Of a DNA stretch of 64,000 nucleotides, positions 6,701 to 64,000 are shown piece after piece. The stretch is from the IMG/VR virus record IMGVR_UViG_3300042303_000391. The stretch is one strand, 5' to 3'. This stretch comes from an uncultured virus (IMG/VR IMGVR_UViG_3300042303_000391) (Duplodnaviria; Heunggongvirae; Uroviricota; Caudoviricetes). A program made the position numbers and the translations under genes. Under the pieces are notes generated by a model. That model searched no databases, was not told the DNA's origin, and was given only the letters and a program-made list of their open reading frames with translations. The stretch's first letter is position 1. Each line of letters starts with the position of its first letter.

Positions 6701-9034
6701 TACATTATCATTTACATAAGAATAATTATCTGTACAAATATTTTTAAATTGATAAATATCTTCTGTTCTATTAAAGAAACCCCTACTTCTATCTAGAGTT
6801 CCATTAGATTGCTGGTCATACCCATAATTATATAAGTTATAAATTTGTATTGCAGTAGATCTAAATCTGCCATCTTTATCTAAAAATGTAGAAGGGTCAT
6901 AAGTATCATCTCCAATGTCTTTACAAACTCTAAGAGAATTTTGATCTCTAATAGAATCTATATAATAACCCAAAGTAGTATATTGTTGTTCTATTTTAAC
7001 ATGATTAACATTAACTCCTTGTTGTGAGGACATAGTATTCCCCCCATAAAACATTATTCCACTATCATAGTGTTTTCCATAGCCGCAGTTTCTAACAAAA
7101 TCTTGTATAGGGCTAGAGGTTTCAATAGTCTTATCTCTTATATTAGAAAAATAATCCCATTTTGCACCTGAATTAACATTATGTTTAGGGTAAATATAAT
7201 CTGTATTATTAAAGTTATTTTTAAACATTTCTACAAACCATCCCTTATCTTGTATTGATTTGTTAAAGGCATCTCTTCTTACATATACAATTCTATACCC
7301 TGTAACTTTGACACCATCTGTCTCTTCTAATGTAGGAAACTGTATGTTTTCTAATTTTAATCCTAATGGATATATCTCTAAATCATCAAATTTATTATCA
7401 AATCTATTTTTATTTTGTTCAAAAGCATAATTATCTACTATATTGTTGTGGAAGGGTTCAATAGTAGAATCTGGCATTTTAAACAAAGTAATGTTTTTAG
7501 GCGTTACTATTTTAGTAATGGGATCAATATTAACGGGATACATGTAACCCTTCTCTTCTTCAGGATCACCTCCACATCTAAGTATTATAGGATATGTTTC
7601 TTCTGATTCAAAATAACCTAAATAACCTTCAGATCTTATATTATTAGAATCATTATTAAAGGTTCCAGAACAAAAGTCAGTTGTACTAAGGTCTCCCGCA
7701 AAATGATTATACATAGTTCTCTTAGCAGTATTAACTTCTTTCCAATACACTCTATCATCTGTACAACATAATTTTGTATCATCTGTGATAGGTCTATCTC
7801 CCTCAGGTCCTGTAAATTCAGGAAAAGGAGTATATTGTTTATTAATTAAAGGAAATACAGGAGATTCTGACATATCCTCAAATTCTAAAACAATTCCAAT
7901 CATATAGTTTTCATCTCTCATCCAAGACTTATGATGAATAATATGTTCAGGATTTTTATATCCCTTTGTTCTGCTTAAATTTATTCTTCCTGTTACATAT
8001 TTAACAGTAATGTCATTTGCATAGGGCTGGTAATCAATATTTTTAATCCCTCTTACTCCAGCAATTAATAGTTTATTATTATAAATTAATCCATGCTTTG
8101 CCGACACATAAAAAGCTCTTTTATTTAAAACTTCCGCTAAATCTATTCCTTGATTAAAGGTAGTATCACCCTCATAAGTAACTGTCAAATTTGACGCTAC
8201 AGGTTGTTGGGATTTAAAAATAAAAGAAGTAGAGACTCCCCCAACTGTTTTAATAAATCCAACATTAATAAAAGCATATTTAGTGTCTACATTTTCAAAT
8301 GTTAATACAATACTTTTATTTAAAATCTTAGATTCATTACCATCAAGGTATTCATAAGTGCCATTTATACTGTCTTCTATTAAAGGAATATTTTCATTTA
8401 TAATATAAAAGTTAGTAGTATTACCATCAATATCTTCATATTGAATAAAAGGTCTATAAACGCCCGCATCCACATTATAAGCAGCATTCTCAATAAATCC
8501 TACATCCCTTAAATTAATGCAAGTATCAGCAGTTTTAAACAATTCTAAATCTTCAACATTACCTGAACCCGCACCTTCTTTTAGATACTTAGTTACATTA
8601 ATATTTCTCACTCTATTTTTACCATCCCAAAAAATTAACACAATGTCTTCACATTCTGTTTTTGTAAAAGCAACTGACTCTAAGTAAATAGAAAAATCTA
8701 ATTCAGGGTCTGAATATAAAGTAGTGTAGGTATTTAAATTAGGGTCATATAAGCCTATTTGATTTGTGTGCAAGAATACTACAACTTGATTTAATTGCTT
8801 AATCAAATTAGAATGTAAAACTTTCCCAGGCAACTTGATTCTAAATGCATTAGAATATTCTGTGGTGAGAAAATTCTCATCTCCTTCAGAGGATTCTTTC
8901 ACCATATTCAAAGCAGCTCTGTAGGTATCTGCTGGCTGTGCTTCTGGAGAAGCGTCATCATTCATACCTTTAGTGAAGGTATAATTCTTTATATCTTGAA
9001 GACTTCTTGTTTTATTGTTATTTTGCTCTGCCAT
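3746..9034 (-). CDS. Tail stabilization/muzzle protein (P22 gp10-like, crAss-type)
   Basis: 1762 aa; N-terminal FTKGMNDD..P...YR.ALN and C-terminal TISY......SFHSY.P motifs typical of this family; adjacent to tail tubular gene. Confidence 0.8.
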   Translation of the reverse strand: MAEQNNNKTRSLQDIKNYTFTKGMNDDASPEAQPADTYRAALNMVKESSEGDENFLTTEYSNAFRIKLPGKVLHSNLIKQLNQVVVFLHTNQIGLYDPNLNTYTTLYSDPELDFSIYLESVAFTKTECEDIVLIFWDGKNRVRNINVTKYLKEGAGSGNVEDLELFKTADTCINLRDVGFIENAAYNVDAGVYRPFIQYEDIDGNTTNFYIINENIPLIEDSINGTYEYLDGNESKILNKSIVLTFENVDTKYAFINVGFIKTVGGVSTSFIFKSQQPVASNLTVTYEGDTTFNQGIDLAEVLNKRAFYVSAKHGLIYNNKLLIAGVRGIKNIDYQPYANDITVKYVTGRINLSRTKGYKNPEHIIHHKSWMRDENYMIGIVLEFEDMSESPVFPLINKQYTPFPEFTGPEGDRPITDDTKLCCTDDRVYWKEVNTAKRTMYNHFAGDLSTTDFCSGTFNNDSNNIRSEGYLGYFESEETYPIILRCGGDPEEEKGYMYPVNIDPITKIVTPKNITLFKMPDSTIEPFHNNIVDNYAFEQNKNRFDNKFDDLEIYPLGLKLENIQFPTLEETDGVKVTGYRIVYVRRDAFNKSIQDKGWFVEMFKNNFNNTDYIYPKHNVNSGAKWDYFSNIRDKTIETSSPIQDFVRNCGYGKHYDSGIMFYGGNTMSSQQGVNVNHVKIEQQYTTLGYYIDSIRDQNSLRVCKDIGDDTYDPSTFLDKDGRFRSTAIQIYNLYNYGYDQQSNGTLDRSRGFFNRTEDIYQFKNICTDNYSYVNDNVILNKILNSEYSLVNFYREGGFYLDFNKPTDLSFNKNYKDFYDINFTVASTTTVTIPSNNSIAPGEIVTITNLGSCGTNFIFGPIGRQFSVVNATTLQVIGAPFNVSDVGKSCNTIDYIVSTNRNFFNSDTSSKKCNCTTLFDNIIEAEISTTGLSLSAASFTSDILTNLPASITNYPNGTIFTLTDVGPILPPPFPFLVGDKYKLNTSLNQLEKTQNFYTPVPSPLPINGLNFKFETDTWINQTFTVASPPAGNLVNYSNPLFPVGTLLTITNNPGAPFTNGMVFMVVSSTQIRWLTVFDSFQSVGSASNVSFKAQIPPGNDETYFFENYLDNKTAKNILNDCNNGYIYYGSIKNNLPRQYGSIDDMFFIDTGLKGCVGQNSLTGFYGDSYINTFSFLRTGVTGMLEDSIIDDNSQTWADKGDPKYTINSIIGRTPDSYLLALFLAQKANVTLINTVTESDVNLDLRYEGPNFNEVYYPKLANGKYQLFSRRKNDFAEDCFLNSYFYELFCATDQDNCTTSAAEFVEYNDAYRNFHDNIINLNNDYNELNGMRFNFFKPINKNYKTCDCDTEYDNRIAISTADNQSVGRLNYSKFLKNSFVTLPHKEGKITNLFKESQILYAHTTDNIWRLLTLESKLQADNNLVYLGTNDFLSAQQLELFASSEGYMGLQDKRFKFQNNTGYFFVDLKNQTLNLMSGGKLDAISTYGMNSFFKNQWNTYFNSYGASTNTNLPIISQSNPDLSTVEIYFGYDYRHKRLLLTDKSNDFTISYYPEDKSFYSFHSYLPMAYIQNRDTFFTQADNYDLYIHEDNFNSYRKFYGVNYPSLIDGVFTYHPLVYTTLNNVGMKIDAYKNVNGQLLITNEVPTSLQVWTSRQHSGEVFLKTPINADYMENVVLNNQFHNIINGVVYCNNLANYVLDDTINFVNGDIFPVPNANVSFSKDWTQVDRLENNFFNYRISIDNKDLENLKFILKFTVLNYNISMR

Positions 9035-14684: not shown

Positions 14685-15466
14685 ACTTGTCTACTTAATG
14701 AAGTTTGGAAAGTTTGTATTGTTGTTCTTATATTTGATTCATCTGCATCTGTTAAACCATCTCCTATTGTTGCAAAAGCCAAATTTGCTAAGGAATACTC
14801 TGGCACCCCACCATTGCTACTTGCTAATAAAAAATTTATAGAATTTATTGCTGTACCATTAGCAGCACTAACAGTTATAGCACTTGTAGCTGGTCTATAG
14901 TATTTAAATTGACCACTAGTTGTTTTTGACATTAAAACCTGACCAAGTTTTGAACCAGCTAAAGCTCTACTTTGTTGGGACACTCCTAAAGTAGAGTAAT
15001 CTAAACCTGAAAATTCTGGGTAAAATCTATTTGAAGTTCCTGGACTTGTTATTGTTCCCATTGGTGAACCTACTGTAAGTGCATTTCTAATATACATAGA
15101 TAAATGTTTACTATTAATATTCAAAGTATTATCATTTAAAAATGTAGTTGCATAAGCATTTGATCCATTCCCAGTTATTCCATTTGAGGTATGGTTTACT
15201 CCCCCAAGAAATTGTAACCTAAATGCAGCATTTAAGTCTCTAGGATCTTTTAAGTTAAATTTATGAGTAGTGGCAGTTCCCCCTACCAAAGGATATATTG
15301 CTCTCATTTTAGTCCATACTCCAGCAGATTTAAAGCTGAGAACTAAAGTATTTATAGCTGATGTAATTGTAGGACTAGTTATTCCTGCTGCAGTCAAAAA
15401 TGCACTTGCATCTGGATCAATTGCAGGTGTTTTTGGCATTAAAGAAATTAAACTATAATAACTCAT
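14681..15466 (-). CDS. Tail-associated beta-rich protein; paralog of 18418-19197
   Basis: DPDA.AFLTAAGIT, KM.AIYPLVGGT, HK.NLK.P, SNRFYPEF, ANLAFA shared with paralog. Confidence 0.65.
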   Translation of the reverse strand: MSYYSLISLMPKTPAIDPDASAFLTAAGITSPTITSAINTLVLSFKSAGVWTKMRAIYPLVGGTATTHKFNLKDPRDLNAAFRLQFLGGVNHTSNGITGNGSNAYATTFLNDNTLNINSKHLSMYIRNALTVGSPMGTITSPGTSNRFYPEFSGLDYSTLGVSQQSRALAGSKLGQVLMSKTTSGQFKYYRPATSAITVSAANGTAINSINFLLASSNGGVPEYSLANLAFATIGDGLTDADESNIRTTIQTFQTSLSRQV

Positions 15467-56833: not shown

Positions 56834-57034
56834 TATAGAACCAAACCAAATAAAAAAATTATAAATTATGATACATATAGTATTTAAACTTGAAAAAGAA
56901 GATTTATTTAGCAACGGAAAAACATACGAAGGTACTGTTTGCGAGGCTTACCAACAATGGGAAATAGAATACCCCAATGCAACATTTATGGGGTTGTATA
57001 TTCATTGTATGAATTAATAATAAAAAACTAATTT

Positions 57035-57673
57035 ATGAAATTATCATTAAATAAAACAAAATTGTACTATTATGATAGGGATTCACTCACCTTTAAAAAA
57101 GGCAAATGGATTAACGGACTATACCTATCTTTAATTTTAAATATGCTAATAATAGCAGGATTACTTTCTAATAATGTTTCAGTAAATATGAAATATACTA
57201 ATATGTTAAGCATATTGAAGCAAAAAGAAAAAACTATTAAGCATTTAGAAGTAAAAAGCCAAGATAGTGCTACTGAATATACTGATTTCAGAAGAAGTTT
57301 GCCCCTTAAATTAACTCTAAAAGAAGAAAAAAGATTGAATCATTTGTACTTTACCTATAAAAGTTTAATAGATAAGCATCATTGTCCTCATAACTTATTA
57401 TGGTATATTGCATTTAAAGAATCAAGATTAAACTTAAACGCTAAAAATTCTAGTTCTTCTGCTAAAGGTATGTTCCAATTTATAAATGGTACCTGGAATG
57501 CTATGTGTAAGAGAGGGGGGATGGATGTTTTAAATAGATATTCTGAAGAAAAACAAGTAAAGGTGGCTTGCATTTATCTTGATTTTTTATTTGAAAAATA
57601 TAAAGATTGGCAATTAGTACATAAAGAATATACAGGTGGAGTTATACATTATAGACTACCTTATTACAAATAA
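57035..57673 (+). CDS. Membrane-anchored lytic transglycosylase (SLT domain)
   Basis: IAFKESRLN.NAKN..SSAKGMFQF..GTW; TM segment near the N-terminus. Confidence 0.8.
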   Translation: MKLSLNKTKLYYYDRDSLTFKKGKWINGLYLSLILNMLIIAGLLSNNVSVNMKYTNMLSILKQKEKTIKHLEVKSQDSATEYTDFRRSLPLKLTLKEEKRLNHLYFTYKSLIDKHHCPHNLLWYIAFKESRLNLNAKNSSSSAKGMFQFINGTWNAMCKRGGMDVLNRYSEEKQVKVACIYLDFLFEKYKDWQLVHKEYTGGVIHYRLPYYK

Positions 57674-57703
57674 ATAAATTATCACCCTTAAAATTAAATT
57701 AAA

Positions 57704-57943
57704 ATGACAGAAAAAATAGATAATTGCCCAGAGGGCGGAGACGGCATAGTAATTATACCCAAGCCCTCCTACTTGCTTCCAAAAGACTATTCAAGATGTA
57801 TTTCTGTAGATTGCCCTGCTAGAGATTGTGCTAGGCTACAAAACTATCTTTATGATAGGCAAAGTGAAGAGCCTATATTAATGTCTGATTTTAGTCAAGA
57901 CAAAAAAATAGAGTCAAAAGAAGATTGTGAATTTTACCTATGA
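57704..57943 (+). CDS. Small Cys-rich protein
   Basis: D.SRC...CP...C.R ... CEFY. Confidence 0.55.
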   Translation: MTEKIDNCPEGGDGIVIIPKPSYLLPKDYSRCISVDCPARDCARLQNYLYDRQSEEPILMSDFSQDKKIESKEDCEFYL

Positions 57944-59001
57944 AAGCAGAAGTCCAGGAAAAAGCAGTGAACGCTTTCCTATCCTCTAAAGATAGAAGAT
58001 CCACTATTGCTCTAGCGGTAGGAATGGGAAAGACAAAGTGTGCTATTGATATTATTAAACACTATAGAAGTACTAACCCTTATTGTAAAATTTTATTTAG
58101 TGGTGCAAGACAAATTTATATTAAAAACTTTAAAGATGAATTAACTAAATGGGGTTGTTTGGAAAATAACATTACCTTTATATGCAATAAATCTTTGAAA
58201 AATTACAACGAAAAGTACGATTTGATTATTATAGATGAAATGCACAAGGAAAAAGATCTTATATTGGAAAATTGTTTGAGACTTATGAGAATAAACCCTG
58301 CGGTATCTATTCTAGGACTTACAGGTACGCCAAGCAATACCCATGAAATTCACAAATACTTTCCTATTTGTTATTCCTACCTTATCAATAATGCTATTGA
58401 TAATAATTTATTGAATAATTTTCAAATGGTTGTGGTTAAGTATAAGATGACTCCTGAAGAAAAAAGTGTTTATGATTATCATCACAAAAATTATTTAACA
58501 TCTCCATATAATGAATCCTACCCTCCTGAATTAGGCAAACTGAAGCAGTTCTTAAATACATTACCTAGCAAAGTGGCTCTAGCTAATAGACTAATTAATG
58601 AGAAATTTTCAGATAAAAAGCTACTAATCTATGCAGGAAGTATTGAGCAAGGTGCTAGTTTTGGGTTTTCTCAATTTAATTCTTCTATGGATAATAAAAC
58701 TAAGAAGAAAAACTATGATGAGTTCTATCACTCTGAATCAGGTAGACTAGTAAATGTAGGAATCCTAAAAGAATCCGTTAGTATACCAAATTTAAAGTAT
58801 GGATTTGTGCTAGGAATAGATAGTTCTCCTTCATCAAAAGAACAACTTATCGGAAGATTTTGCAGGATAGCAGTACATGAGAAAAGTTTTATATATTTCT
58901 TAGTAGCTGAGGGAACTTTAGAAGAAAAGTGGGTGTTGAATGGTATGGATAAATTTAAAGATAAGATAGCAGTAGTTAACCTTAGTAAAAATAAAAAATA
59001 A
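57940..59001 (+). CDS. Superfamily 2 helicase
   Basis: G.GKT, DEMH, GLTGTP, Q.IGR..R. Confidence 0.88.
   Translation: MKAEVQEKAVNAFLSSKDRRSTIALAVGMGKTKCAIDIIKHYRSTNPYCKILFSGARQIYIKNFKDELTKWGCLENNITFICNKSLKNYNEKYDLIIIDEMHKEKDLILENCLRLMRINPAVSILGLTGTPSNTHEIHKYFPICYSYLINNAIDNNLLNNFQMVVVKYKMTPEEKSVYDYHHKNYLTSPYNESYPPELGKLKQFLNTLPSKVALANRLINEKFSDKKLLIYAGSIEQGASFGFSQFNSSMDNKTKKKNYDEFYHSESGRLVNVGILKESVSIPNLKYGFVLGIDSSPSSKEQLIGRFCRIAVHEKSFIYFLVAEGTLEEKWVLNGMDKFKDKIAVVNLSKNKK
58972..58997 (+). repeat. 26 bp direct repeat, copy 1 (copy 2 at 59641-59666)
   Basis: GTAGTTAACCTT[A/G]GTAAAAATAAAAA, 25/26 identical. Confidence 0.85.
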
Positions 59002-59002
59002 T

Positions 59003-59317
59003 ATGAAAGAAGAAATGATTAAAAAAATGAATGAAGATATGATTTTAGCTGAATGGATCTCTACTCGTCTATACAATAGAGTAGTGTGTATTTTAGAAAA
59101 ACTTGATAGAAAAATTAATCTTCGTAATGAACAAAATGGATATAGAAACTTTTGTTTACAAGATTTGCTTTTAGTAAATTTAGATGAACTAAAAGCATTA
59201 AGAAATGTAGGAGAAGTTTCTATTAAAGAATTTGAATTTTGGCATTCAATAGCTTTAAAAACCAAAAAGCTAGAACGACTATGGCTTGGCGAAGGCGTGG
59301 CTACTACAAATGCTTAA
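59003..59317 (+). CDS. RNA polymerase alpha-CTD-like protein
   Basis: ISTRLYN and DLL.....EL..LRNVGEVSI.E match the alpha-CTD HhH pattern. Confidence 0.65.
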   Translation: MKEEMIKKMNEDMILAEWISTRLYNRVVCILEKLDRKINLRNEQNGYRNFCLQDLLLVNLDELKALRNVGEVSIKEFEFWHSIALKTKKLERLWLGEGVATTNA

Positions 59318-59363
59318 CCAAAGAACTAAATTTTATTAGCCACATTTTATAAATACCTTGTTA
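59273..59363 (+). repeat. attC-like site 0 (degenerate/chimeric)
   Basis: GAAC-6nt-GGCTTGGCGAAGG (as in site 2), inner stem GTGGCTA/TAGCCAC, ends TT-GTTA. Confidence 0.55.
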
Positions 59364-59372
59364 GGCAAAATT

Positions 59373-59624
59373 ATGATAAACGAAATAATAGAACAATACG
59401 AAGATGAAACATTCTTAAAGGCTGATGGGTTTGATGAAGCCATTATCGGAGTATGTGAGGACTTTAATGCTCCAGTTAGATTAATATATTCAGTTACAAA
59501 GTGTATAGAAATACTTATGAGAGATATGTCAGAAGAAGATGCAATGGAGCATTTTAATTTCAATGTAAGTGGCGGTTATGTGGGGGAGAAAACTCCGATA
59601 TGGTGTTGGGACAATTTCACCTAA
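59373..59624 (+). CDS. Cassette-borne hypothetical protein
   Basis: ADGFDEAIIG...YS..KC...A.E.F.FN..G.YVGE.TP; bounded by GTTAGGCAAAATT/AATTTCACCTAAC; stop lies in TAAC. Confidence 0.7.
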   Translation: MINEIIEQYEDETFLKADGFDEAIIGVCEDFNAPVRLIYSVTKCIEILMRDMSEEDAMEHFNFNVSGGYVGEKTPIWCWDNFT

Positions 59625-59753
59625 CGGTAGGCTACTTTGCGTAGTTAACCTTGGTAAAAATAAAAACAATGAATGATTTTGAATCTGCAAAAAATATAAA
59701 TGAATTATTTAAAAATTAATTTCCAATAAATTAACCAACTAAAAACTAAAAGA

Positions 59754-60020
59754 ATGAAAAAGCAATTAAATTCTACTTACTTAGTAGCAGAGTATCTAAA
59801 GGAAAACAAAAAAAGCTACATTCATGACATGAAAAAAAAATGTAAAGCAAACAACGTAGGAGCGAGGGTAATGGCACTAAGGCGTTCATTTGAATGGAAA
59901 ATAGATACTATTTTAGAGGGGTACAAAGATGGCGTTGCGATATGGTATTATAAGTTAGTAAAGGCAAAAAAAATGCCAGAGCAGTACAATTTAAAGCCAT
60001 TGAATAAAGCTAGTGCATAA
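59754..60020 (+). CDS. Winged-HTH DNA-binding protein
   Basis: VGARV.ALR...WKIDT...YYKL; stop lies in TAAC of site 1. Confidence 0.55.
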   Translation: MKKQLNSTYLVAEYLKENKKSYIHDMKKKCKANNVGARVMALRRSFEWKIDTILEGYKDGVAIWYYKLVKAKKMPEQYNLKPLNKASA

Positions 60021-60148
60021 CGTTCCGAGTATTGCCGCAGTAGCGGAATTAGAATTACAAAACTTAAAATTAAGAACAAATGTCAAATAGAAAAACAAAA
60101 GTTGAACATACCACAGAACCCGCTATTGTCGGCAATACTGTGTTAGCT
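60015..60148 (+). repeat. attC-like site 1
   Basis: GCATAAC-6nt-AGTATTGCCGCAGTAGCGG ... CCGCTATTGTCGGCAATACT-2nt-GTTAGCT. Confidence 0.75.
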
Positions 60149-60391
60149 GCCGTTAAAATCAAGGACTTACCAAAAGATACCAATTTGCAAGGCATAAAGG
60201 TTAAACTACCAAAACATATTTATACTTCTTCAAGTCTGCCGATGTATGGTATAAAAAATAAGCCTGTGTATTTGCAAGGATGGGTAATGGGTGATTTTTT
60301 TGTAAAAACAGACTTGAAAAGCAGTCAAATTTATCCTATGTTTTGGTCGTTTGTTCCGTCAGATTTTCAAGAATGGGAGGTTGTCAGTTAA
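60080..60391 (+). CDS. Cassette-borne hypothetical protein with N-terminus encoded inside site 1
   Basis: ATG lies in the hairpin loop and the ORF reads through GTG TTA into the cassette. Confidence 0.65.
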   Translation: MSNRKTKVEHTTEPAIVGNTVLAAVKIKDLPKDTNLQGIKVKLPKHIYTSSSLPMYGIKNKPVYLQGWVMGDFFVKTDLKSSQIYPMFWSFVPSDFQEWEVVS

Positions 60392-60395
60392 TGGC

Positions 60396-60488
60396 AGCTA
60401 ACGTTATAGGGCTTGGCGAAGGTGGGCTTGTAGGATGCTCAATTTTAGCAGAATGTGTCTGCCCACTTTTGCCAAGCCCGTGTTATAT
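60396..60488 (+). repeat. attC-like site 2
   Basis: AGCTAAC-6nt-GGGCTTGGCGAAGGTGGGC ... GCCCACTTTTGCCAAGCCC-2nt-GTTATAT. Confidence 0.75.
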
Positions 60489-60524
60489 GCCGTTTGAATT
60501 ATTAACCAATTAAATAAATATAAA

Positions 60525-60743
60525 ATGAATATCATTAAAGATAACAGAATTGTATCAGACAAAACATTTGCAACCCGGTTTGTAAGTTTCTTAAAAGACA
60601 TACAAGTTAATGACCCAATGAGCGAAGAAGAACTTGAATATCTGCGTAGGGTTGCACATTCTTTACTTCTTCATCAAGCTAATACTTGCACCGAAAAAGA
60701 AGAATTAAACTACTTAGATAGGTGTCACCCAAATGGCATATAA
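60525..60743 (+). CDS. Cassette-borne hypothetical protein
   Basis: 72 aa; bounded by GTTATATGCCGTTTG/CAAATGGCATATAAC; stop lies in TAAC. Confidence 0.65.
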   Translation: MNIIKDNRIVSDKTFATRFVSFLKDIQVNDPMSEEELEYLRRVAHSLLLHQANTCTEKEELNYLDRCHPNGI

Positions 60744-60785
60744 CTCGCTGCTTTACGAAATTTTTGTAACACAAATTAAACCTAA

Positions 60786-60968
60786 ATGCAGATAAATACT
60801 GAAATATTAAACATAAGGATAAGTAAAGAGCAAAAGCAAACCTTAGATAAATTAAAAGAGTATAATGTTAACGTAGCTCAATTTGTGCGAAATGCAATTA
60901 AGGAGAAGTTGCAACGAGAAAAAGCCGAAATAATAACTAACTATAAAAATTTAGAATGCCCATTTTGA
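60786..60968 (+). CDS. Ribbon-helix-helix DNA-binding protein
   Basis: LNIRIS (beta strand), KEQKQTLDKL (helix), NVAQFVRNAIKEKL (helix). Confidence 0.65.
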   Translation: MQINTEILNIRISKEQKQTLDKLKEYNVNVAQFVRNAIKEKLQREKAEIITNYKNLECPF

Positions 60969-61008
60969 AAAAAAAAATAATACATTTGCACCTAAAAAAA
61001 TAATAATT

Positions 61009-61884
61009 ATGTTTAATAAAGAAAAAGACAGATTAAGTTATAGTTCTCTCACTAGACTTATAAAAGAAGGAGTACAAGGATTTTTAAACCCTGTATACAA
61101 AAGAAATAATGCTTTAGAGAAAGGGTCTATTATAGATAAGATAGTTTTTGATGAGCCTATCACTGAAACTATTATAGATATTCCTATTCCAAAGCCTCAA
61201 ATTAAGGCTATTATTGAAAATATTTTTACAGAGGAGTATAACTACGACCTCTCTGCGGAAAACTTAGAAAAGGTTTGTGGTATATTAGATGTGAAATCTA
61301 AGAATTTTGAGAAAATAAAAGAATCCGTTCTGGAGTTTCCTGAATATATTGAATATGCAAAAAATCCAAAAGGTAAGTTTCTAAAACCTAATTTTGAATT
61401 AGGAACCTCTATTGCCAATAATGTGCTAAAAGATAGAGAAGCCGCCTATTTATTCAGTAATGGTAAGGCTCAGTTTGAGTGGAGTTTTCAATACAGAGGA
61501 TATAACTTTTTTATAAAGACAGATTATTTAAAAGTGGATCATGATAGACAAGAGATTATTATCACTGATTTGAAATCCAGCAGCTACCCTCCGAAATTTC
61601 CTGATAGTGTGCAAAAATATTTGTATCACTTACAGGGGGCTTTGTATACAAAAGGGGTGGAAGACTGGATGGAGAAAAATGATTTGAACCATTATGTACT
61701 AAAAACTTTTCATTGGGTGGTATGCAATTCTACCAAAGTAGATAGTGTGCTAGTATACCCCCTATCTTATAAAGACGAGATGGAAGGTAAACGTATTTTA
61801 GAGGAAACTTTGGATAAGATTGACAAGTACATTGAAAATGATTGGCAAGAAATCCCTGAAGAAGATACCTTAACTTTTTTCTAA
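61009..61884 (+). CDS. PD-(D/E)XK exonuclease (RecE/DUF3799-like)
   Basis: LSYSSL, K.D...I.DLKS, Y.YHLQ.ALY. Confidence 0.8.
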   Translation: MFNKEKDRLSYSSLTRLIKEGVQGFLNPVYKRNNALEKGSIIDKIVFDEPITETIIDIPIPKPQIKAIIENIFTEEYNYDLSAENLEKVCGILDVKSKNFEKIKESVLEFPEYIEYAKNPKGKFLKPNFELGTSIANNVLKDREAAYLFSNGKAQFEWSFQYRGYNFFIKTDYLKVDHDRQEIIITDLKSSSYPPKFPDSVQKYLYHLQGALYTKGVEDWMEKNDLNHYVLKTFHWVVCNSTKVDSVLVYPLSYKDEMEGKRILEETLDKIDKYIENDWQEIPEEDTLTFF

Positions 61885-63915
61885 ATGACAAACCACATAA
61901 TCACAAAAAACAAATCCTTTTTCCAAAAAATAGGGGAGTATAGTTACTGTAATCTTGAAGACATGGTGCTTCCTGAAATAATAGCGGTAGATACAGAGAC
62001 TACTTCCCTCTCTGCCTTTGAGGGGGAAATATTTGCCATTCAAATAGGAACAGGGACAAATAATTATCTAATTGATTTGCAGACACATAAAGAGAATATA
62101 ATTAATTTAGAGGAAGTTATGCCTTTTATATTGGATAAGGTTATGATATTTCATAATAGTGCCTTCGATTTGAGTTTCTTCTTTATCAAGAATTACTTCC
62201 CTAAAAAAGTGGGAGATACGATGTTGGCATCTATGATTCTACACAATGGAGAATTCGGAGTATCACATTCTTTTAAGAATTGTATGCAAAGAGAGCTAGG
62301 GGTTATATACGACAAAACAGAACAAGCTAATATTGCTAGAGTTCAGTTATCGCAGCCATCCACAATTCAATATTGCTTTAATGATGTTGATAGACTATTA
62401 GAGTTACACAATGATTTAGTGATTAAATTAAAAGATTATGAAGCCATAGATTCTTATAAATTGCATTGTAGACATATCAGGGCACTTACATATATGGAGT
62501 TATGCGGACTTCCAATATCAAAGGATAGGTGGAAAGCAAAAATGGATAAAGATTATTCCCAATACAAAAAATGTGAGAGAGAAATAATTGATTATATTTT
62601 TGACACCCTGCCTAAATATAGAGTTTTACAGATGGATATGTTTAGCAACGAAAGGAAAGTAAATTGCCTATTAAGTTCTCCTAAACAAATGATAGAAGTG
62701 TTTAAAGATTTAGGTATAAATGTCACTTATAAAGAAAAAGGAGAGATAAAAGAAAGTTTAGAAAAAGGAGTTATAGCTAAGTCAAATCATGAGTTTGTAA
62801 AAATGTGGCTTAAATATAAAGAAGTGGAGCATAATGTAACTACTTTTGGAGAGGGTATTTATTCTAAAATAAGGGATGGAAGAATATACACCCACTTCAA
62901 ACCGATAGTAGACACTGCTAGACTATCTTCAAGAAAGGGAGAGATAAACTTTTTAAATTTTCCCTCTAACAAAGAAACAAGAGAATGTTTCGTGGCAAAT
63001 GAAGGATTTGACATTATTGTAGCTGACTACGCAGGGCAAGAAACAGTTGTAGGGGCTGATATTACTGGAGACCAAGCCATGATTTCTTCTATAGTGGAAG
63101 GAAAGGACTTACACTGTGCCTTTGCTAGAGTTCTCTATCCTGAATTATTAGATCTTTCTGATGAAGAAATTATTAAAAATCATAAAGCAAAGCGAAATGC
63201 TTCTAAAGCACCTAGATTTTGTTTCCAATTTGGGGGTACTGGATTTACTTTAGCAGAGAATGAAGGATTATCTATAGAGGAAGGAGATCGTATTGAAAAA
63301 TTATTCAAAGAATTACATAATGGAGTGTACTCTTATGGGGAAAATAAGCTAAAGGAAGCTTTAGAGTTTGGTTATATTCAATATGCAATGGGATTTAAAT
63401 TAAAGCTACCAATGTTTGATATTTTCAAAGACCTTGATGAGAAGATTTCAAATATGGATAGAGATTTTTGGAATAAATATAGAGTGGGTAAGCAAGAAAA
63501 TCTGAAATTTGAGAAAGCTAAAGATAAAGGGAGTTCGTATGTAATATCAGATATGGGGGCATACAATTGCTTTAATGCAAATAAACTAATGATGAAGGAT
63601 TATTTCAGTTTAAAATCTCAGTATATGAGATTATGTTTAAATGCTCCCACACAAGGCACTGCTGCCCATCAAACTAAAATGGCTTCAGTGTTGTTATTTA
63701 ATCAAATTGAAAAAAACAATGACTATTGGAAAGCAAGGATAGCAAATGTAATACATGATGAGATAGTTTTGGAAACTGAGACTCACCTATCAGAAAAATA
63801 TGCTAGAATACTGGAAAAAAGTATGATAGAGGGTGGTAATATATTTCTCACCAACCCTACACTATTTATGAGTGCTGAAAGTAATATTGGAAAATCATGG
63901 TATGAAGCCAAATAA
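61885..63915 (+). CDS. polA: DNA polymerase family A with 3'-5' exonuclease
   Basis: AVDTET, HN..FD, TARLSS, ADYAGQE, DLH, R...K...F, QGTAA, VIHDEI. Confidence 0.95.
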   Translation: MTNHIITKNKSFFQKIGEYSYCNLEDMVLPEIIAVDTETTSLSAFEGEIFAIQIGTGTNNYLIDLQTHKENIINLEEVMPFILDKVMIFHNSAFDLSFFFIKNYFPKKVGDTMLASMILHNGEFGVSHSFKNCMQRELGVIYDKTEQANIARVQLSQPSTIQYCFNDVDRLLELHNDLVIKLKDYEAIDSYKLHCRHIRALTYMELCGLPISKDRWKAKMDKDYSQYKKCEREIIDYIFDTLPKYRVLQMDMFSNERKVNCLLSSPKQMIEVFKDLGINVTYKEKGEIKESLEKGVIAKSNHEFVKMWLKYKEVEHNVTTFGEGIYSKIRDGRIYTHFKPIVDTARLSSRKGEINFLNFPSNKETRECFVANEGFDIIVADYAGQETVVGADITGDQAMISSIVEGKDLHCAFARVLYPELLDLSDEEIIKNHKAKRNASKAPRFCFQFGGTGFTLAENEGLSIEEGDRIEKLFKELHNGVYSYGENKLKEALEFGYIQYAMGFKLKLPMFDIFKDLDEKISNMDRDFWNKYRVGKQENLKFEKAKDKGSSYVISDMGAYNCFNANKLMMKDYFSLKSQYMRLCLNAPTQGTAAHQTKMASVLLFNQIEKNNDYWKARIANVIHDEIVLETETHLSEKYARILEKSMIEGGNIFLTNPTLFMSAESNIGKSWYEAK

Positions 63916-63930
63916 ATTAAATTTAAAGTT

Positions 63931-64000
63931 ATGAGAAGAAAGACAGTAAAAAAATCCAACACCACAACTCCTAGGAAAAAGAAAAAGGTAGTTAATCCTA
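63931..64000 (+). CDS. Partial ORF at window edge
   Basis: ATG 63931 MRRKTVKKSNTTTPRKKKKVVNP..., open to the edge. Confidence 0.5.
   Translation, partial: MRRKTVKKSNTTTPRKKKKVVNP

What the first reader, a model, noticed from the sequence alone, without database searches (positions are those of the whole stretch)
59310..60497. Each att-like hairpin encodes a leader peptide in a fixed frame across the GTT core
Seen: every site has an ATG in its loop, and its frame crosses the core as xTG TTA. Site 1, ATG 60080: MSNRKTKVEHTTEPAIVGNTV-LAAV..., fused directly to a cassette ORF whose first in-frame ATG is far downstream. Site 2, ATG 60435: MLNFSRMCLPTFAKPV-LYAV* (TGA 60495), followed by the cassette's own ATG 60525. 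Site 0, ATG 59310: MLNQRTKFY*PHFINTL-LGKIM..., in frame with the cassette ORF but broken by TAG 59337. Inference: the site supplies translation initiation to whichever cassette lands downstream, so start-less cassettes can be expressed. Translation of the leader could also melt the hairpin to limit termination.
Basis: partly seen in the sequence, partly recalled or inferred. Interest (0 to 1): 0.8.

Follow-up and report, generated by a model that had tools for sequence, protein, structure and literature searches.

The report
Phage cassette hairpins that start genes
In this lake crAss-like phage, small swappable genes are separated by integron-like DNA hairpins; one of the three hairpins named holds the start codon and first 21 codons of the gene behind it, and the reading frame is fixed within a hairpin family but not across families.

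Summary
Only site 1 (ATG 60080) looks like a working gene start. ATG 59310 and ATG 60435 have non-start-like contexts, give 9- and 20-codon ORFs, and their cassettes have good ATGs of their own.

The region 59000-61000 is a hypervariable, integron-like cassette array between the helicase and exonuclease genes of a crAss-like phage. It is absent in 7 of 21 related loci and reshuffled in others.

In relatives, 10 of 20 hand-curated hairpins start a long ORF from a loop ATG, in frame xxG|TTA (2) or GTT|Axx (8). A further gene uses the third frame. So the frame is not universal.

Within a hairpin family the frame is fixed. The site 1 "head" precedes 6 different gene bodies (12 of 12 open). Another head precedes 30 bodies (45 of 46 open).

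ORF 60080's body lacks its native ATG. The head mostly travels with the gene it precedes.

No recombinase is encoded here. One unrelated phage has such an array directly before a Xer-like recombinase.

This scan noted the same phenomenon before on other DNA.

The parts
58972..58997 (+). 3' end of the helicase gene (57940-59001). This is copy 1 of a 26-nt direct repeat, GTAGTTAACCTTAGTAAAAATAAAAA, and marks the upstream edge of the variable array.
   Evidence: family D2, 96% identical to 59641-59666. (ResIII/Helicase_C). (relatives diverge from the window at 58998-59015).
59003..59317 (+). ORF A (104 aa, no family). It reads on into the site 0 hairpin because the left foot here is GAAC, not TAAC, so the foot gives no stop codon.
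   Evidence: Present only in L001, L002, L004 and the window's own contig.
59269..59372 (+). Site 0, a degenerate hairpin head. Left foot GAAC 59273-59276; arm motif GGCTTGGCGAAGG 59283-59295; weak stem 59297-59303 / 59336-59342; core GTT 59360-59362.
   Evidence: z -0.4. (arm motif shared with site 2). (59283-59335 is shared with L006/L012, where the right half is different and starts a Dcm gene).
59310..59339 (+). It is a 9-codon ORF closed by TAG 59337, with a poor start context.
   Evidence: 9 aa, does not reach the core. (score -11.1, 9th percentile).
59373..59624 (+). ORF B (83 aa, phrog_13182), with its own ATG 10 nt after the core. Its stop TAA lies inside CCTAAC (59620-59625).
   Evidence: (+2.2). 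(site 0 plus ORF B move together: behind ORF A in the window and L002, behind ORF C in L003).
59620..59666 (+). Junction made of CCTAAC, a short stem (GGCTAC...GTAG) and copy 2 of the helicase-end repeat (59641-59666). A remnant of the 3' end of another ORF follows (59670-59720).
   Evidence: D2. (fold not better than shuffles, z +0.2). (the same 3' end closes a full ORF in L003, L005, L006, L025).
59754..60020 (+). ORF C (88 aa). Its stop TAA lies inside the left foot GCATAAC (60015-60021).
   Evidence: (followed by different things in different loci: the site 1 head in the window, a site 0-type hairpin in L003 and L006, no hairpin in L005 and L031).
60015..60156 (+). Site 1, the 'h1' head. 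Left foot GCATAAC 60015-60021; arms 60028-60046 / 60120-60139 with one bulged base; loop with an A-rich start context and ATG 60080; core GTT 60142-60144; core-proximal repeat 60142-60156.
   Evidence: I14.. (5 of 9 stem pairs changed on both sides against the L037 head). (12 of 12 instances).
60080..60391 (+). ORF D (103 aa). The leader M1-V25 is encoded by loop, right arm, core and repeat. The conserved body starts at K26.
   Evidence: 56 homologs; 20 of 36 aligned start at the V25/K26 position. (+4.3).
60388..60496 (+). Site 2. The 3' terminal repeat of ORF D's cassette is TTAATGGCAGCTAAC (60388-60402); arms 60409-60427 / 60461-60479; 33-nt loop; core GTT 60482-60484; repeat 60482-60496.
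   Evidence: I4, I8, I14. (z -5.1). (contigs break at 60394-60403 and at 60481-60489).
60435..60497 (+). It is a 20-codon ORF (14 codons from ATG 60453) that ends 28 nt before the real ATG 60525. At most it is an upstream ORF.
   Evidence: (-11.3 for 60435, -4.6 for 60453).
60525..60743 (+). ORF E (72 aa, phrog_24038), with its own ATG. Its stop TAA lies inside GGCATATAAC.
   Evidence: (+7.1). (I8: 60479-60496 is complementary to 60730-60747).
60730..60785 (+). 3' terminal repeat of ORF E's cassette (ending TAAC at 60744), followed by the conserved terminal site TCGCTGCTTTACGAAATTTTTGTAACACAAATTAAAC. This site closes the arrays of L003, L005, L006, L011, L026, L030 and L031 behind various last cassettes.
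   Evidence: (no ATG between its feet).
60786..60968 (+). ORF F (60 aa, phrog_25647; weak ribbon-helix-helix-type matches). It lies behind the terminal site and is absent from the relatives that have no array.
   Evidence: all matches below the curated cut-offs..

Best explanation
The stretch is part of an integron-like, integrase-less cassette array in a crAss-like phage of lake Bacteroidota. Each cassette is bounded by GTTA...TAAC ends that are complementary to each other. In front of most cassettes lies a folded 'head': TAAC, left arm, loop, right arm, GTTA.

Genes run on the strand on which TAAC lies at the 5' foot of the hairpin. This is the mirror image of a classical integron cassette, so the hairpin sits in front of its gene.

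In full-size heads the loop carries an A-rich, Shine-Dalgarno-less start context and an ATG. Translation starts there, reads the 3' arm, the core and the terminal repeat as a leader of 16-25 codons, and runs into a body joined at or next to its original first codon.

In this window only site 1 / ORF 60080 works this way. Sites 0 and 2 are shortened or degenerate heads whose cassettes keep their own ATG.

Shown here: the anatomy, the variability between relatives, the covariation of the stems, and the fixed frame within head families. Inferred: that the loop ATG is used, that the hairpins are recombination sites on single-stranded DNA, and that a Xer-like tyrosine recombinase acts on them in trans.
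For: 1. Variable array. Of 21 related loci, 7 join helicase directly to exonuclease (L007-L010, L013, L028, L029). Others hold other cassettes or the same ones in another order.

2. Cassette ends. The start of a body is complementary to its own end with a perfect run of 8 or more in 15 of 23 bodies (mean 7.8). Across the hairpin this holds in 1 of 24. Permuted pairs give a mean of 4.6, and at most 5.74 in 2000 permutations. In 12 of 23 bodies the pattern is 10 matches, then G opposite T, then a match; this pairs only on the + strand.

3. Structure rather than sequence. The heads of the window and of L037 in front of the same body differ on both sides in 5 of 9 stem pairs, and the pairs are kept. 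Strong sites (10 of 10 pairs, GC-rich arms) occur only in this array in the window, in G001 and in G002.

4. Loop ATGs start genes. In 10 of 20 curated sites a loop ATG opens an ORF that runs 36-349 codons past the core. Their start-context scores are 3.5-7.0, the 95th-99th percentile, in 9 of those 10. Pfam domains begin at residue 28 (Dcm; core at codon 21) and at residue 24 (PAPS_reduct; core at codon 17). In ORF 60080, V25 stands where 20 of 36 homologs have their Met.

5. Re-use of heads. The h1 head occurs in 12 stretches with 6 bodies, all open for 49-115 codons past the core. The h8 head occurs in 46 stretches with 30 bodies; 45 are open for 30 or more codons. When the best-context ATG is chosen blind to frame, it is in the long ORF's frame in 33 of 36 distinct h8 sites and 9 of 10 distinct h1 sites. 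ATG-to-core distances in h8 include 57, 60, 63, 66 and 69 nt.

6. Breakpoints. 11 of 24 listed loose ends of lake-metagenome contigs lie within 8 nt of a foot of site 1, site 2 or the terminal site. Those windows make up about 4% of the stretch.

7. Enzyme lead. In G009 an array of at least 12 such sites ends at a TAAC about 125 nt before a 240-aa tyrosine recombinase gene on the same strand.
Against: - No experiment or expression data bear on which codon is used.
- GTG 60140, at the core, is an in-frame alternative start for ORF 60080 that the sequence cannot exclude.
- The loop-encoded part of the leaders is poorly conserved as protein. Frame conservation and in-frame length changes are therefore the only coding signals. 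The instances of one head family are related by descent and are not independent.
- Two loop ATGs of long ORFs have weak contexts: L005 8242 scores -3.7 and L037 2492 scores +0.7.
- The window's lineage encodes no tyrosine recombinase (0 of 4 records), and Pfam scans of 131 ORFs show no other recombinase.
- Only 2 of 8 other head-bearing records have a tyrosine recombinase. In one of those two, no hairpin lies within its 3.4-kb locus.
- The folding energies do not clearly favour the + strand: it is more stable in 9 of 18 curated sites, mean -0.6 kcal/mol.
- Heads h8 and h16 have unrelated DNA on both sides. A single crossover point does not explain everything.
- The 20 sites were curated by eye.
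Confidence: 0.7

Rival explanations
1. The hairpins are regulatory intergenic modules, as in the PeSLs of T4-type phages. Genes are shuffled by ordinary homologous or microhomology recombination between these conserved modules, not by a structure-specific recombinase. The loop ATG is simply each gene's start within a conserved 5' region.
For: Identity between loci is often confined to the head itself, with unrelated flanks on both sides. That is what a shared regulatory module would give. Hybrid heads exist that switch inside the loop (window 59283-59335 against L006; L044 and L067). The region also shows non-site-specific events, such as the 26-nt duplication of the helicase end. The phage has a RecE-like exonuclease next to the array and no site-specific recombinase.
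Against: Body-specific complementarity of cassette ends, 15 of 23 against 1 of 24 across the hairpin, has no role in that model. Stems covary while their sequence diverges. No terminator-like site is found, and promoter-like sites are not enriched: 5 found against 10.2 expected. An array of the same site type ends next to a tyrosine recombinase in G009.
Confidence: 0.15
2. Translation starts at or after the core (for example GTG 60140, or the GTT-ATG found at the start of several bodies). The open frame from the loop ATG is a by-product of a structured 5' untranslated region.
For: GTG 60140 is in frame and would add only 4 residues to the family's N-terminus. Several bodies begin GTT ATG (L025 S3, S4, hTi; L005 h13), so they have a start of their own at the core. 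The loop-coded residues are not conserved.
Against: The Dcm gene of L006/L012 has no ATG, GTG or TTG in frame between the core and its Pfam domain, which starts at residue 28 (sequence; domain). Best-context ATGs chosen blind to frame are in frame in 33 of 36 and 9 of 10 sites, and leader lengths differ by whole codons. The frame stays open in 45 of 46 and 12 of 12 instances. The 20 nt before GTG 60140 are the GC-rich right arm, unlike the A-rich context of real starts.
Confidence: 0.1
3. The conserved leaders are functional protein tags (for example for targeting, packaging or processing), and their conservation is at the protein level. The hairpin would be secondary.
For: The C-terminal part of the h8 leader (KLHISDV) also occurs without a recognisable left arm, inside longer ORFs (L052, L055, L058, L062, L070). 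The left arm matches at least 11 of 14 in only 31 of 46 instances.
Against: The conserved residues are exactly those encoded by the right arm and core. The left arm, which is non-coding, is complementary to them in 31 of 46 instances. Arms covary between heads. Other heads encode unrelated leaders. Short-loop heads have no leader at all (L025 S6, L034).
Confidence: 0.05
4. The three in-frame ATGs of the window are a chance pattern without meaning.
For: Two of the three are non-functional by context and by length. The a-priori chance of three equal frames is about 1 in 9.
Against: For site 1 the pattern recurs in 12 of 12 instances with 6 bodies, and it is explained by the homolog alignment.
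Confidence: 0.02

Closest known systems
Integron gene cassettes with attC sites, and clusters of attC sites lacking an integrase (CALINs) in virulent phages (Qi et al. 2023, PMC9892861; abstract and section 3.4 read, text searched, supplements not seen)
   Same: Imperfect hairpins with AAC...GTT feet lie between small, mostly unknown genes. The cassette ends are complementary to each other. Stop codons lie in the TAAC foot. Cargo includes DNA methyltransferases. The array differs between close relatives. No integrase lies nearby.
   Different: The genes lie on the other strand relative to the hairpin, so the site precedes its gene. Many genes start inside the loop. The stems are long and nearly perfect. 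The complementary cassette ends extend to 10-15 nt with a conserved G opposite T at position 11. The only linked enzyme seen (in G009) is a 240-aa Xer-like recombinase that is below the cut-off of the integron-integrase models. The text of Qi et al. contains neither 'start codon' nor 'crAss'.
ORF-11 / ORF-18 / ORF-17 in attI1, and short ORFs within attC sites, of class 1 integrons (review PMC8876359; passages read; it cites Hanau-Bercot et al. and Jacquier et al.)
   Same: A short ORF with its own start signals overlaps the recombination core. It helps cassettes that lack a translation-initiation region. In one frame the core GTTAG or GTTAA gives its stop codon. A short ORF inside attC is proposed to keep the stem-loop open. 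It fits the short ORFs of site 2 and of L011 s2 (stop TAG in the core).
   Different: There the short ORF acts by termination-reinitiation (translational coupling), and fusion proteins are the exception. Here the loop ATG is the start of the cargo protein itself, and the leader becomes its N-terminus.
PeSLs (promoter-early stem-loops) of T4-type phages (Arbiol et al. 2010, PMC2839356, abstract only; Comeau et al. 2014, PMC4122927, search listing only)
   Same: Small regulatory hairpin modules flank non-essential genes in hyperplastic regions of phage genomes and mediate modular shuffling. Mini-circles are reported there.
   Different: PeSLs are conserved in sequence and consist of a sigma-70-like promoter plus a terminator. 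Here the sequence varies while the structure is kept, no terminator-like site is present, the cassette ends are complementary, and the coding region begins inside the loop.
Homogeneous attC repeats of sedentary chromosomal integrons (Vibrio VCRs; described in PMC8876359, passage)
   Same: One repeat family is attached to many unrelated cargo genes, as with head h8 (30 bodies) and head h1 (6 bodies).
   Different: VCRs follow their genes and carry no start codon for them. The head families here are shared across phage contigs of 4.6 to 325 kb.
Folded single-stranded attP of CTX-phi used by host XerCD (recalled, no call)
   Same: A Xer-type tyrosine recombinase acts on a hairpin formed by single-stranded phage DNA.
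   Different: That system integrates a whole phage genome at dif. It has no cassette array and no coding role for the hairpin.

Membership tests
Integron (IntI + attI + attC cassette array) | An integron integrase (tyrosine recombinase with the IntI-specific extra domain) next to the array | tested here: not met
   PF00589 is found in 0 of 4 records of the window's lineage, G001-G004, two of them rated 100% complete. No recombinase appears in Pfam scans of 28 + 53 + 50 ORFs. The recombinase next to the G009 array scores 132 bits against a 265-bit cut-off for TIGR02249, and its best match is XerA-type at 165 bits against 220.
Integron (IntI + attI + attC cassette array) | attC: imperfect hairpin bounded by R'' (RYYYAAC) and R' (GTTRRRY) | tested here: inconclusive
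   TAAC...GTTA feet are present at all the curated hairpins. The four letters next to them follow RYYY/RRRY only in part (GCCTAAC/GTTAGGC fits; AGCTAAC, ATATAAC, GTTATAT, GTTACAG do not). A single bulged base is seen in site 1 only.
Integron (IntI + attI + attC cassette array) | Start of a cassette complementary to the R'' at its own 3' end, as expected from a circular intermediate | tested here: met
   A perfect run of 8 or more in 15 of 23 bodies, against 1 of 24 across the hairpin. The permutation maximum of the mean run is 5.74, against 7.8 observed. In the window: 60142-60156 against 60388-60402, and 60479-60496 against 60730-60747.
Integron (IntI + attI + attC cassette array) | attC lies 3' of its gene; cassettes are promoterless and read from Pc | tested here: not met
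   The head stays with the gene behind it. Head h1 or its derivative precedes the ORF 60080 body in 5 contexts, with 5 different junctions behind that body. Site 0 stays with ORF B in 2 contexts. Against the window, breakpoints fall at the left foot.
Integron (IntI + attI + attC cassette array) | Score with the attC covariance model (IntegronFinder / HattCI), and recombination by IntI1 | not testable with these tools
   Rfam holds no attC model. The region gave only two sub-threshold miRNA matches.
CALIN (cluster of at least 2 attC sites without an integrase) | Two or more attC sites in a row with no integrase nearby | tested here: inconclusive
   Two strong and two weak sites lie within 1.5 kb and there is no integrase. 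Whether the sites qualify as attC by the standard model could not be run.
PeSL (T4-type promoter-early stem-loop) | Sigma-70-like promoter plus an intrinsic-terminator stem-loop, conserved in sequence | tested here: not met
   No terminator-like site was found. There are 5 promoter-like sites against 10.2 expected from shuffles. The arms differ between sites.
attI1 ORF-11-type translational coupling | A short ORF with its own start signals that crosses the crossover point and ends at or shortly after the core, upstream of the cassette's start | tested here: inconclusive
   Site 2 fits in layout: an ORF of 20 or 14 codons crosses the core and ends 28 nt before ATG 60525. Its start contexts are poor, -11.3 and -4.6. 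L011 s2 stops at the TAG of the core.

The most novel reading that the evidence does not exclude
Phages of freshwater Bacteroidota, both crAss-like and jumbo-sized, share a gene-capture system built as a mirror image of the integron. Its folded recombination sites double as portable expression heads. A head family carries the start context, the ATG and about 20 codons in one fixed frame. Gene bodies cut at their first codon are joined behind it. Capture and expression of a start-less gene fragment would then be a single event, served in trans by compact Xer-like recombinases that most carrier phages, including this one, do not encode.
Probability: 0.45. Interest if true: 0.85.

Novelty: new variant of a known kind. 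Interest (0 to 1): 0.66.

Why it matters
How integron cassettes are made, and how promoter-less or start-less cassettes get expressed, are open questions.

Here the recombination site and the translation start are one physical module, and it is re-used on dozens of unrelated small phage genes. The junction lies at the cargo's first codon. This suggests a formatting step that could be looked for.

It also makes the question testable with simple reporters and with a candidate 240-aa recombinase.

For annotation, gene callers will give such genes variable, hairpin-encoded N-termini, so homologs appear to have unrelated starts.

For this particular finding the practical message is narrower. One of the three 'leaders' is real, and the frame rule does not generalise.

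Tried and rejected
- Megablast of 57000-64000 against cultured phages found no match. The nearest cultured relatives by capsid protein are Flavobacterium psychrophilum phages at 31.7% identity, too far to compare arrays.
- No whole genome is held for the window. I used G001 (the window's own contig) and G002 instead.
- A first site scan by constrained folding of every AAC...GTT pair was far too permissive and its output was cut. It was replaced by arm matching. The loose version of arm matching gives 8 clusters in the window against 5.0 on average in 20 block-shuffled copies, so only the 10-of-10, GC-rich sites stand out.
- Terminal-repeat search with 10-mers and up to 1 mismatch was not selective in this AT-rich genome: 37 pairs in the window.
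- Rfam gave nothing relevant.
- Strand preference from folding energies was weak.
- Sequencing runs: no RNA holder is listed, and all 24 runs are kept as contigs. They say nothing on expression, transcript ends or circular cassettes.
- The locus around the G012 recombinase holds no hairpin site.
- The scan of bacterial genomes for the ORF 60080 family gave only two loci, neither in a chromosomal integron.
- No structure prediction or complex prediction was run, because none of the claims rests on one.
- Literature: searches and the text search found no paper describing cassette genes that start inside attC-like loops in phages. Supplements of Qi et al. 2023 were not opened and may list related phages.
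Full report
**What the window is.** The 64-kb window is most of a crAss-like phage. Pfam finds Crass_capsid, CrAss_Ring_1 and CrAss_Ring_2, a P22-type portal and PhoH on the - strand. On the + strand lies a replication module with a helicase (57940-59001), a PD-(D/E)XK exonuclease (61009-61884) and a family A DNA polymerase (61885-63915).

The window equals positions 1-48635 of record G001 from its base 15366 onward. It is 85-97% identical to G002, a 119,980-base record rated complete. A T9SS sorting domain in G002, and Flavobacterium phages as the nearest cultured relatives by capsid protein (31.7% identity), point to a Bacteroidota host. All 24 public runs that hold the stretch are labelled freshwater, lake or similar metagenomes.

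**The observation.**
- ATG 60080 reads GTG 60140, TTA 60143 and on to 60391.
- ATG 60435 reads GTG 60480, TTA and stops at TGA 60495.
- ATG 59310 is in frame with TTG 59358, TTA but is closed by TAG 59337.

As single-stranded DNA, site 2 folds far better than shuffles (z -5.1), site 1 moderately (z -2.5) and site 0 not at all (z -0.4).

A start-context matrix built from 46 genes of the window separates the three ATGs.
- ATG 60080 scores +4.3, the 96th percentile of all 2080 ATGs.
- ATG 59310 scores -11.1 and ATG 60435 scores -11.3, the 9th and 8th percentiles.
- The cassettes' own ATGs score +2.2 (59373) and +7.1 (60525).

So one of the three 'leaders' is credible. One is a broken 9-codon ORF. 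One is at best a 20-codon upstream ORF.

**What the region is.** Proteins of the helicase and the exonuclease brought in 21 related loci.
- In 7 of them (L007-L010, L013, L028, L029) the helicase gene abuts the exonuclease gene: 59004 joins 60996.
- L002 lacks 60021-60974.
- L003 has ORF C before site 0 plus ORF B, and then a new hairpin with a methyltransferase-like gene.
- L006/L012, L011, L005, L025 and L031 hold other cassettes.

Against the window, the breakpoints fall at 59626, at 60020-60025 and at 60731-60741. Each is at a TAAC that forms the left foot of a hairpin.

The arrays of L003, L005, L006, L011, L026, L030 and L031 all end with the same terminal site behind TAAC, with various last cassettes in front of it.

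Strong sites (10 of 10 stem pairs, GC-rich arms, TAAC and GTTA feet) occur only in this one array in the window, in G001 and in G002.

**Cassette signature.** The first letters of a gene body, starting at the core GTTA, are complementary to the last letters of the same body, ending in TAAC.
- In the window, 60142-60156 pairs with 60388-60402, and 60479-60496 pairs with 60730-60747.
- Over 23 bodies of 8 loci, the perfect run is 8 or more in 15 (mean 7.8). Across the hairpin it is 8 or more in 1 of 24 (mean 4.3). Permuted pairs give 4.6, and never more than 5.74 in 2000 permutations.
- In 12 of 23 bodies the pattern is ten matches, then G opposite T, then a match. This pairs as a wobble only on the + strand.

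This is the logic of integron cassettes, whose ends meet in a circular intermediate. The stems keep their pairing while their sequence changes: 5 of 9 pairs differ on both sides between the window's site 1 and the head in front of the same gene family in L037.

**Where genes start.** I curated 20 site instances in 7 loci by eye, helped.
- 4 have no ATG between the feet.
- 6 have only short ORFs. Two stop before the core. Three are in frame xGT|TAx. Site 2 runs 4 codons past the core.
- 10 have a loop ATG whose ORF runs 36-349 codons past the core, up to the TAAC of the next foot.

A PAPS-reductase-like gene in L038 starts in a loop in the third frame, TGT|TAT.

One arm family (TTTTGCCAA...GTTA) is read in two frames...HFAKPLLGDV in L003 and ...PSFCQTPVTG in L006. 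A universal fixed frame is therefore refuted.

In 9 of the 10, the loop ATG of the long ORF has a start-like context (3.5-7.0). Where the cargo family is known, its conserved part begins just after the core.
- Dcm: Pfam domain from residue 28, core at codon 21.
- PAPS_reduct: from residue 24, core at codon 17.

**ORF 60080.** There are 56 homologs. Of the 36 that I aligned, 20 begin M-(K)-K-I-K-D-L-P at the position of V25/K26 of the window's protein. Others carry different N-terminal extensions that end in [VL]-L-A-A-V, which is the translation of the core and repeat xTG TTA GCT GCC GTT.

In the window the family's ATG is GTT. The next in-frame ATG (M55) lies inside the invariant part. So the gene cannot start inside the cassette at an ATG. 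GTG 60140 at the core remains a formal alternative.

**Heads are re-used, in a fixed frame per family.** The right arm plus core of site 1 occurs in 12 stretches of viral contigs. In all 12, an ATG lies 62 nt before the core in frame xxG|TTA, and the ORF stays open for 49-115 more codons. The 12 instances cover 6 different bodies.

Head 'h8' of L006/L025 occurs in 46 stretches, in contigs of 4.6 to 325 kb, in front of 30 different bodies.
- 45 of 46 are open for 30 or more codons past the core.
- 36 of 46 have a complementary end 104-263 nt downstream.
- In 25 of those 36 the stop codon is the TAA of TAAC.

When the best-context ATG is picked without regard to frame, it is in the long ORF's frame in 33 of 36 distinct h8 sites and in 9 of 10 distinct h1 sites. 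ATG-to-core distances in h8 include 57, 60, 63, 66 and 69 nt. These instances are related by descent, so the counts are not independent trials. Whole-codon length changes do speak for coding constraint.

**Who owns the head.** The body of ORF 60080 has head h1 in the window, L033 and L034 behind three different upstream cassettes. It has a truncated h1 in L036, where another upstream ATG is in frame, and a diverged homologous head in L037.

The junction behind that body differs in each case: site 2 in the window, other hairpins in L034, in L036 and in a contig of run X7, and none in L037. Site 0 stays with ORF B in two contexts.

So the head usually belongs to the cassette it precedes. The start is built in rather than lent by a resident site.

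Exchange at the right foot also happens.
- Heads h8 and h16 have unrelated DNA on both sides, with identity running exactly from TAAC to GTTA.
- The two bodies behind h8 share no protein similarity.
- Lake-metagenome contigs break at 60147, 60481, 60485 and 60489 as well as at 60017-60022, 60394-60403 and 60744.
- In all, 11 of 24 listed loose ends lie within 8 nt of a foot.

**Enzyme.** No Phage_integrase domain is found in G001-G004, and no other recombinase in Pfam scans of 131 ORFs.

Earlier notes of this scan suggested a Xer-type enzyme next to such arrays, so I searched 8 other records that carry h1 or h8 heads. Two have a tyrosine recombinase.

In G009 at least 12 sites of this type, including h1-like and site-2-like arms, form an array. 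Its last cassette ends at a TAAC about 125 nt before a 240-aa recombinase gene on the same strand. That enzyme is closest to XerA/XerD/XerC models and is below every curated cut-off, including those for integron integrases. In G012 no site lies within the 3.4-kb locus of the recombinase.

The window's array is thus an orphan, like a CALIN. Action in trans is an inference.

**Comparison with what is known.**
- CALINs in virulent phages, with methyltransferase cargo and recombination by IntI1, are in print (PMC9892861; abstract and section 3.4 read). That text mentions neither start codons nor crAss-like phages.
- The idea that a short ORF across the crossover point helps start-less cassettes, and that a short ORF inside attC relieves the stem-loop barrier, is known for class 1 integrons as ORF-11, ORF-18 and ORF-17 (PMC8876359; passages read).
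- Upstream translation shapes array expression (PMC11511950; abstract only).
- PeSLs of T4-type phages are the nearest phage analogue of mobile regulatory hairpins (PMC2839356; abstract only). They are promoter-terminator modules, and no terminator-like site is present here.

I found no paper on cassette genes that begin inside the loop of the recombination hairpin. This scan itself has noted the same phenomenon on other DNA several times. I re-tested the claims here rather than relying on those notes.

**Verdict.** Site 1 is a real hairpin-embedded gene start serving a body that lost its own ATG, and its head family keeps one frame on six different bodies. Sites 0 and 2 are not working leaders. 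The frame differs between head families and even within one arm family. The head is mostly part of the downstream cassette. Which codon is used, and which enzyme moves the cassettes, remain untested.

Noticed in passing
L025 2181-2266; L005 7505-7600: Inside the arrays of two relatives, ARAGORN calls a tRNA-like gene of 86-96 nt with a four-base anticodon (atga) and no assigned amino acid. It could be a tRNA with an 8-nt anticodon loop or one with an intervening sequence. It is absent from the window.
   Followed up: partly
window 58972-58997 and 59641-59666; 59670-59720: The last 26 nt of the helicase gene are repeated 669 nt downstream at 96% identity. The repeat is followed by the orphan 3' end of an ORF that is complete in L003, L005, L006 and L025. 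This suggests that ORF A, site 0 and ORF B came in by a non-site-specific event that deleted most of that ORF.
   Followed up: partly
window 59283-59303 against L002 7343-7363; run X8 differences at 59288-59298: The left arm of site 0 differs at six or more positions between otherwise ~99% identical genomes (GGCTTGGCGAAGGCGTGGC against GGCTTTGTGCAGGTGGGGC). This looks like local replacement of one arm rather than point mutation.
   Followed up: no
all cassette ends; for example window 60152 (G) opposite 60392 (T): Position 11 of the complementary cassette ends is a conserved G opposite T in 12 of 23 bodies, often as GTTA-N6-GTT against AAT-N6-TAAC. It may mark a second protein-binding box one helical turn from the core.
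   Followed up: partly
L100 3589-10037 (record G009): An unrelated phage contig holds at least 12 hairpin-headed cassettes followed on the same strand by a 240-aa Xer-like tyrosine recombinase. It is a candidate complete 'mirror integron' platform.
   Followed up: partly
L041-L086 (viral contigs of 4.6-325 kb): Head h8 is found in 46 places, up to three copies within 3 kb of one contig, including contigs of 266-325 kb. In L052, L055 and L070 its leader is fused to the end of a longer upstream ORF. In L044 and L067 its left half is replaced by that of another head family.
   Followed up: partly
L005 ~7890-7900, L031 ~2490-2500, L025 3661: One cassette (MNRNISENPEKW...) has GTT-ATG at its start in L025. 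In L005 and L031 it abuts the TAAC of ORF C directly, without hairpin or ATG. The only in-frame start there is the GTG of GTGCATAAC in the preceding cassette.
   Followed up: no
window 60204-60353: A 16-nt inverted repeat (AAACTACCAAAACATA / TATGTTTTGGTCGTTT, 94%) with AAC and GTT next to it lies wholly inside ORF 60080. It is probably chance or a relic.
   Followed up: no
G002 pieces L018 and L019: The part of the relative's genome beyond the window encodes a GIY-YIG/NUMOD3 homing-type endonuclease, an ART-PolyVal domain protein, ribonucleotide reductase, dUTPase, and proteins with C-type lectin, cohesin, dockerin and T9SS sorting domains.
   Followed up: no
L040 1957-11267: A short-form homolog of ORF 60080 in a MAG contig labelled Bacteroides sits in a cluster of 15 tRNA genes. 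This is probably another large phage.
   Followed up: no
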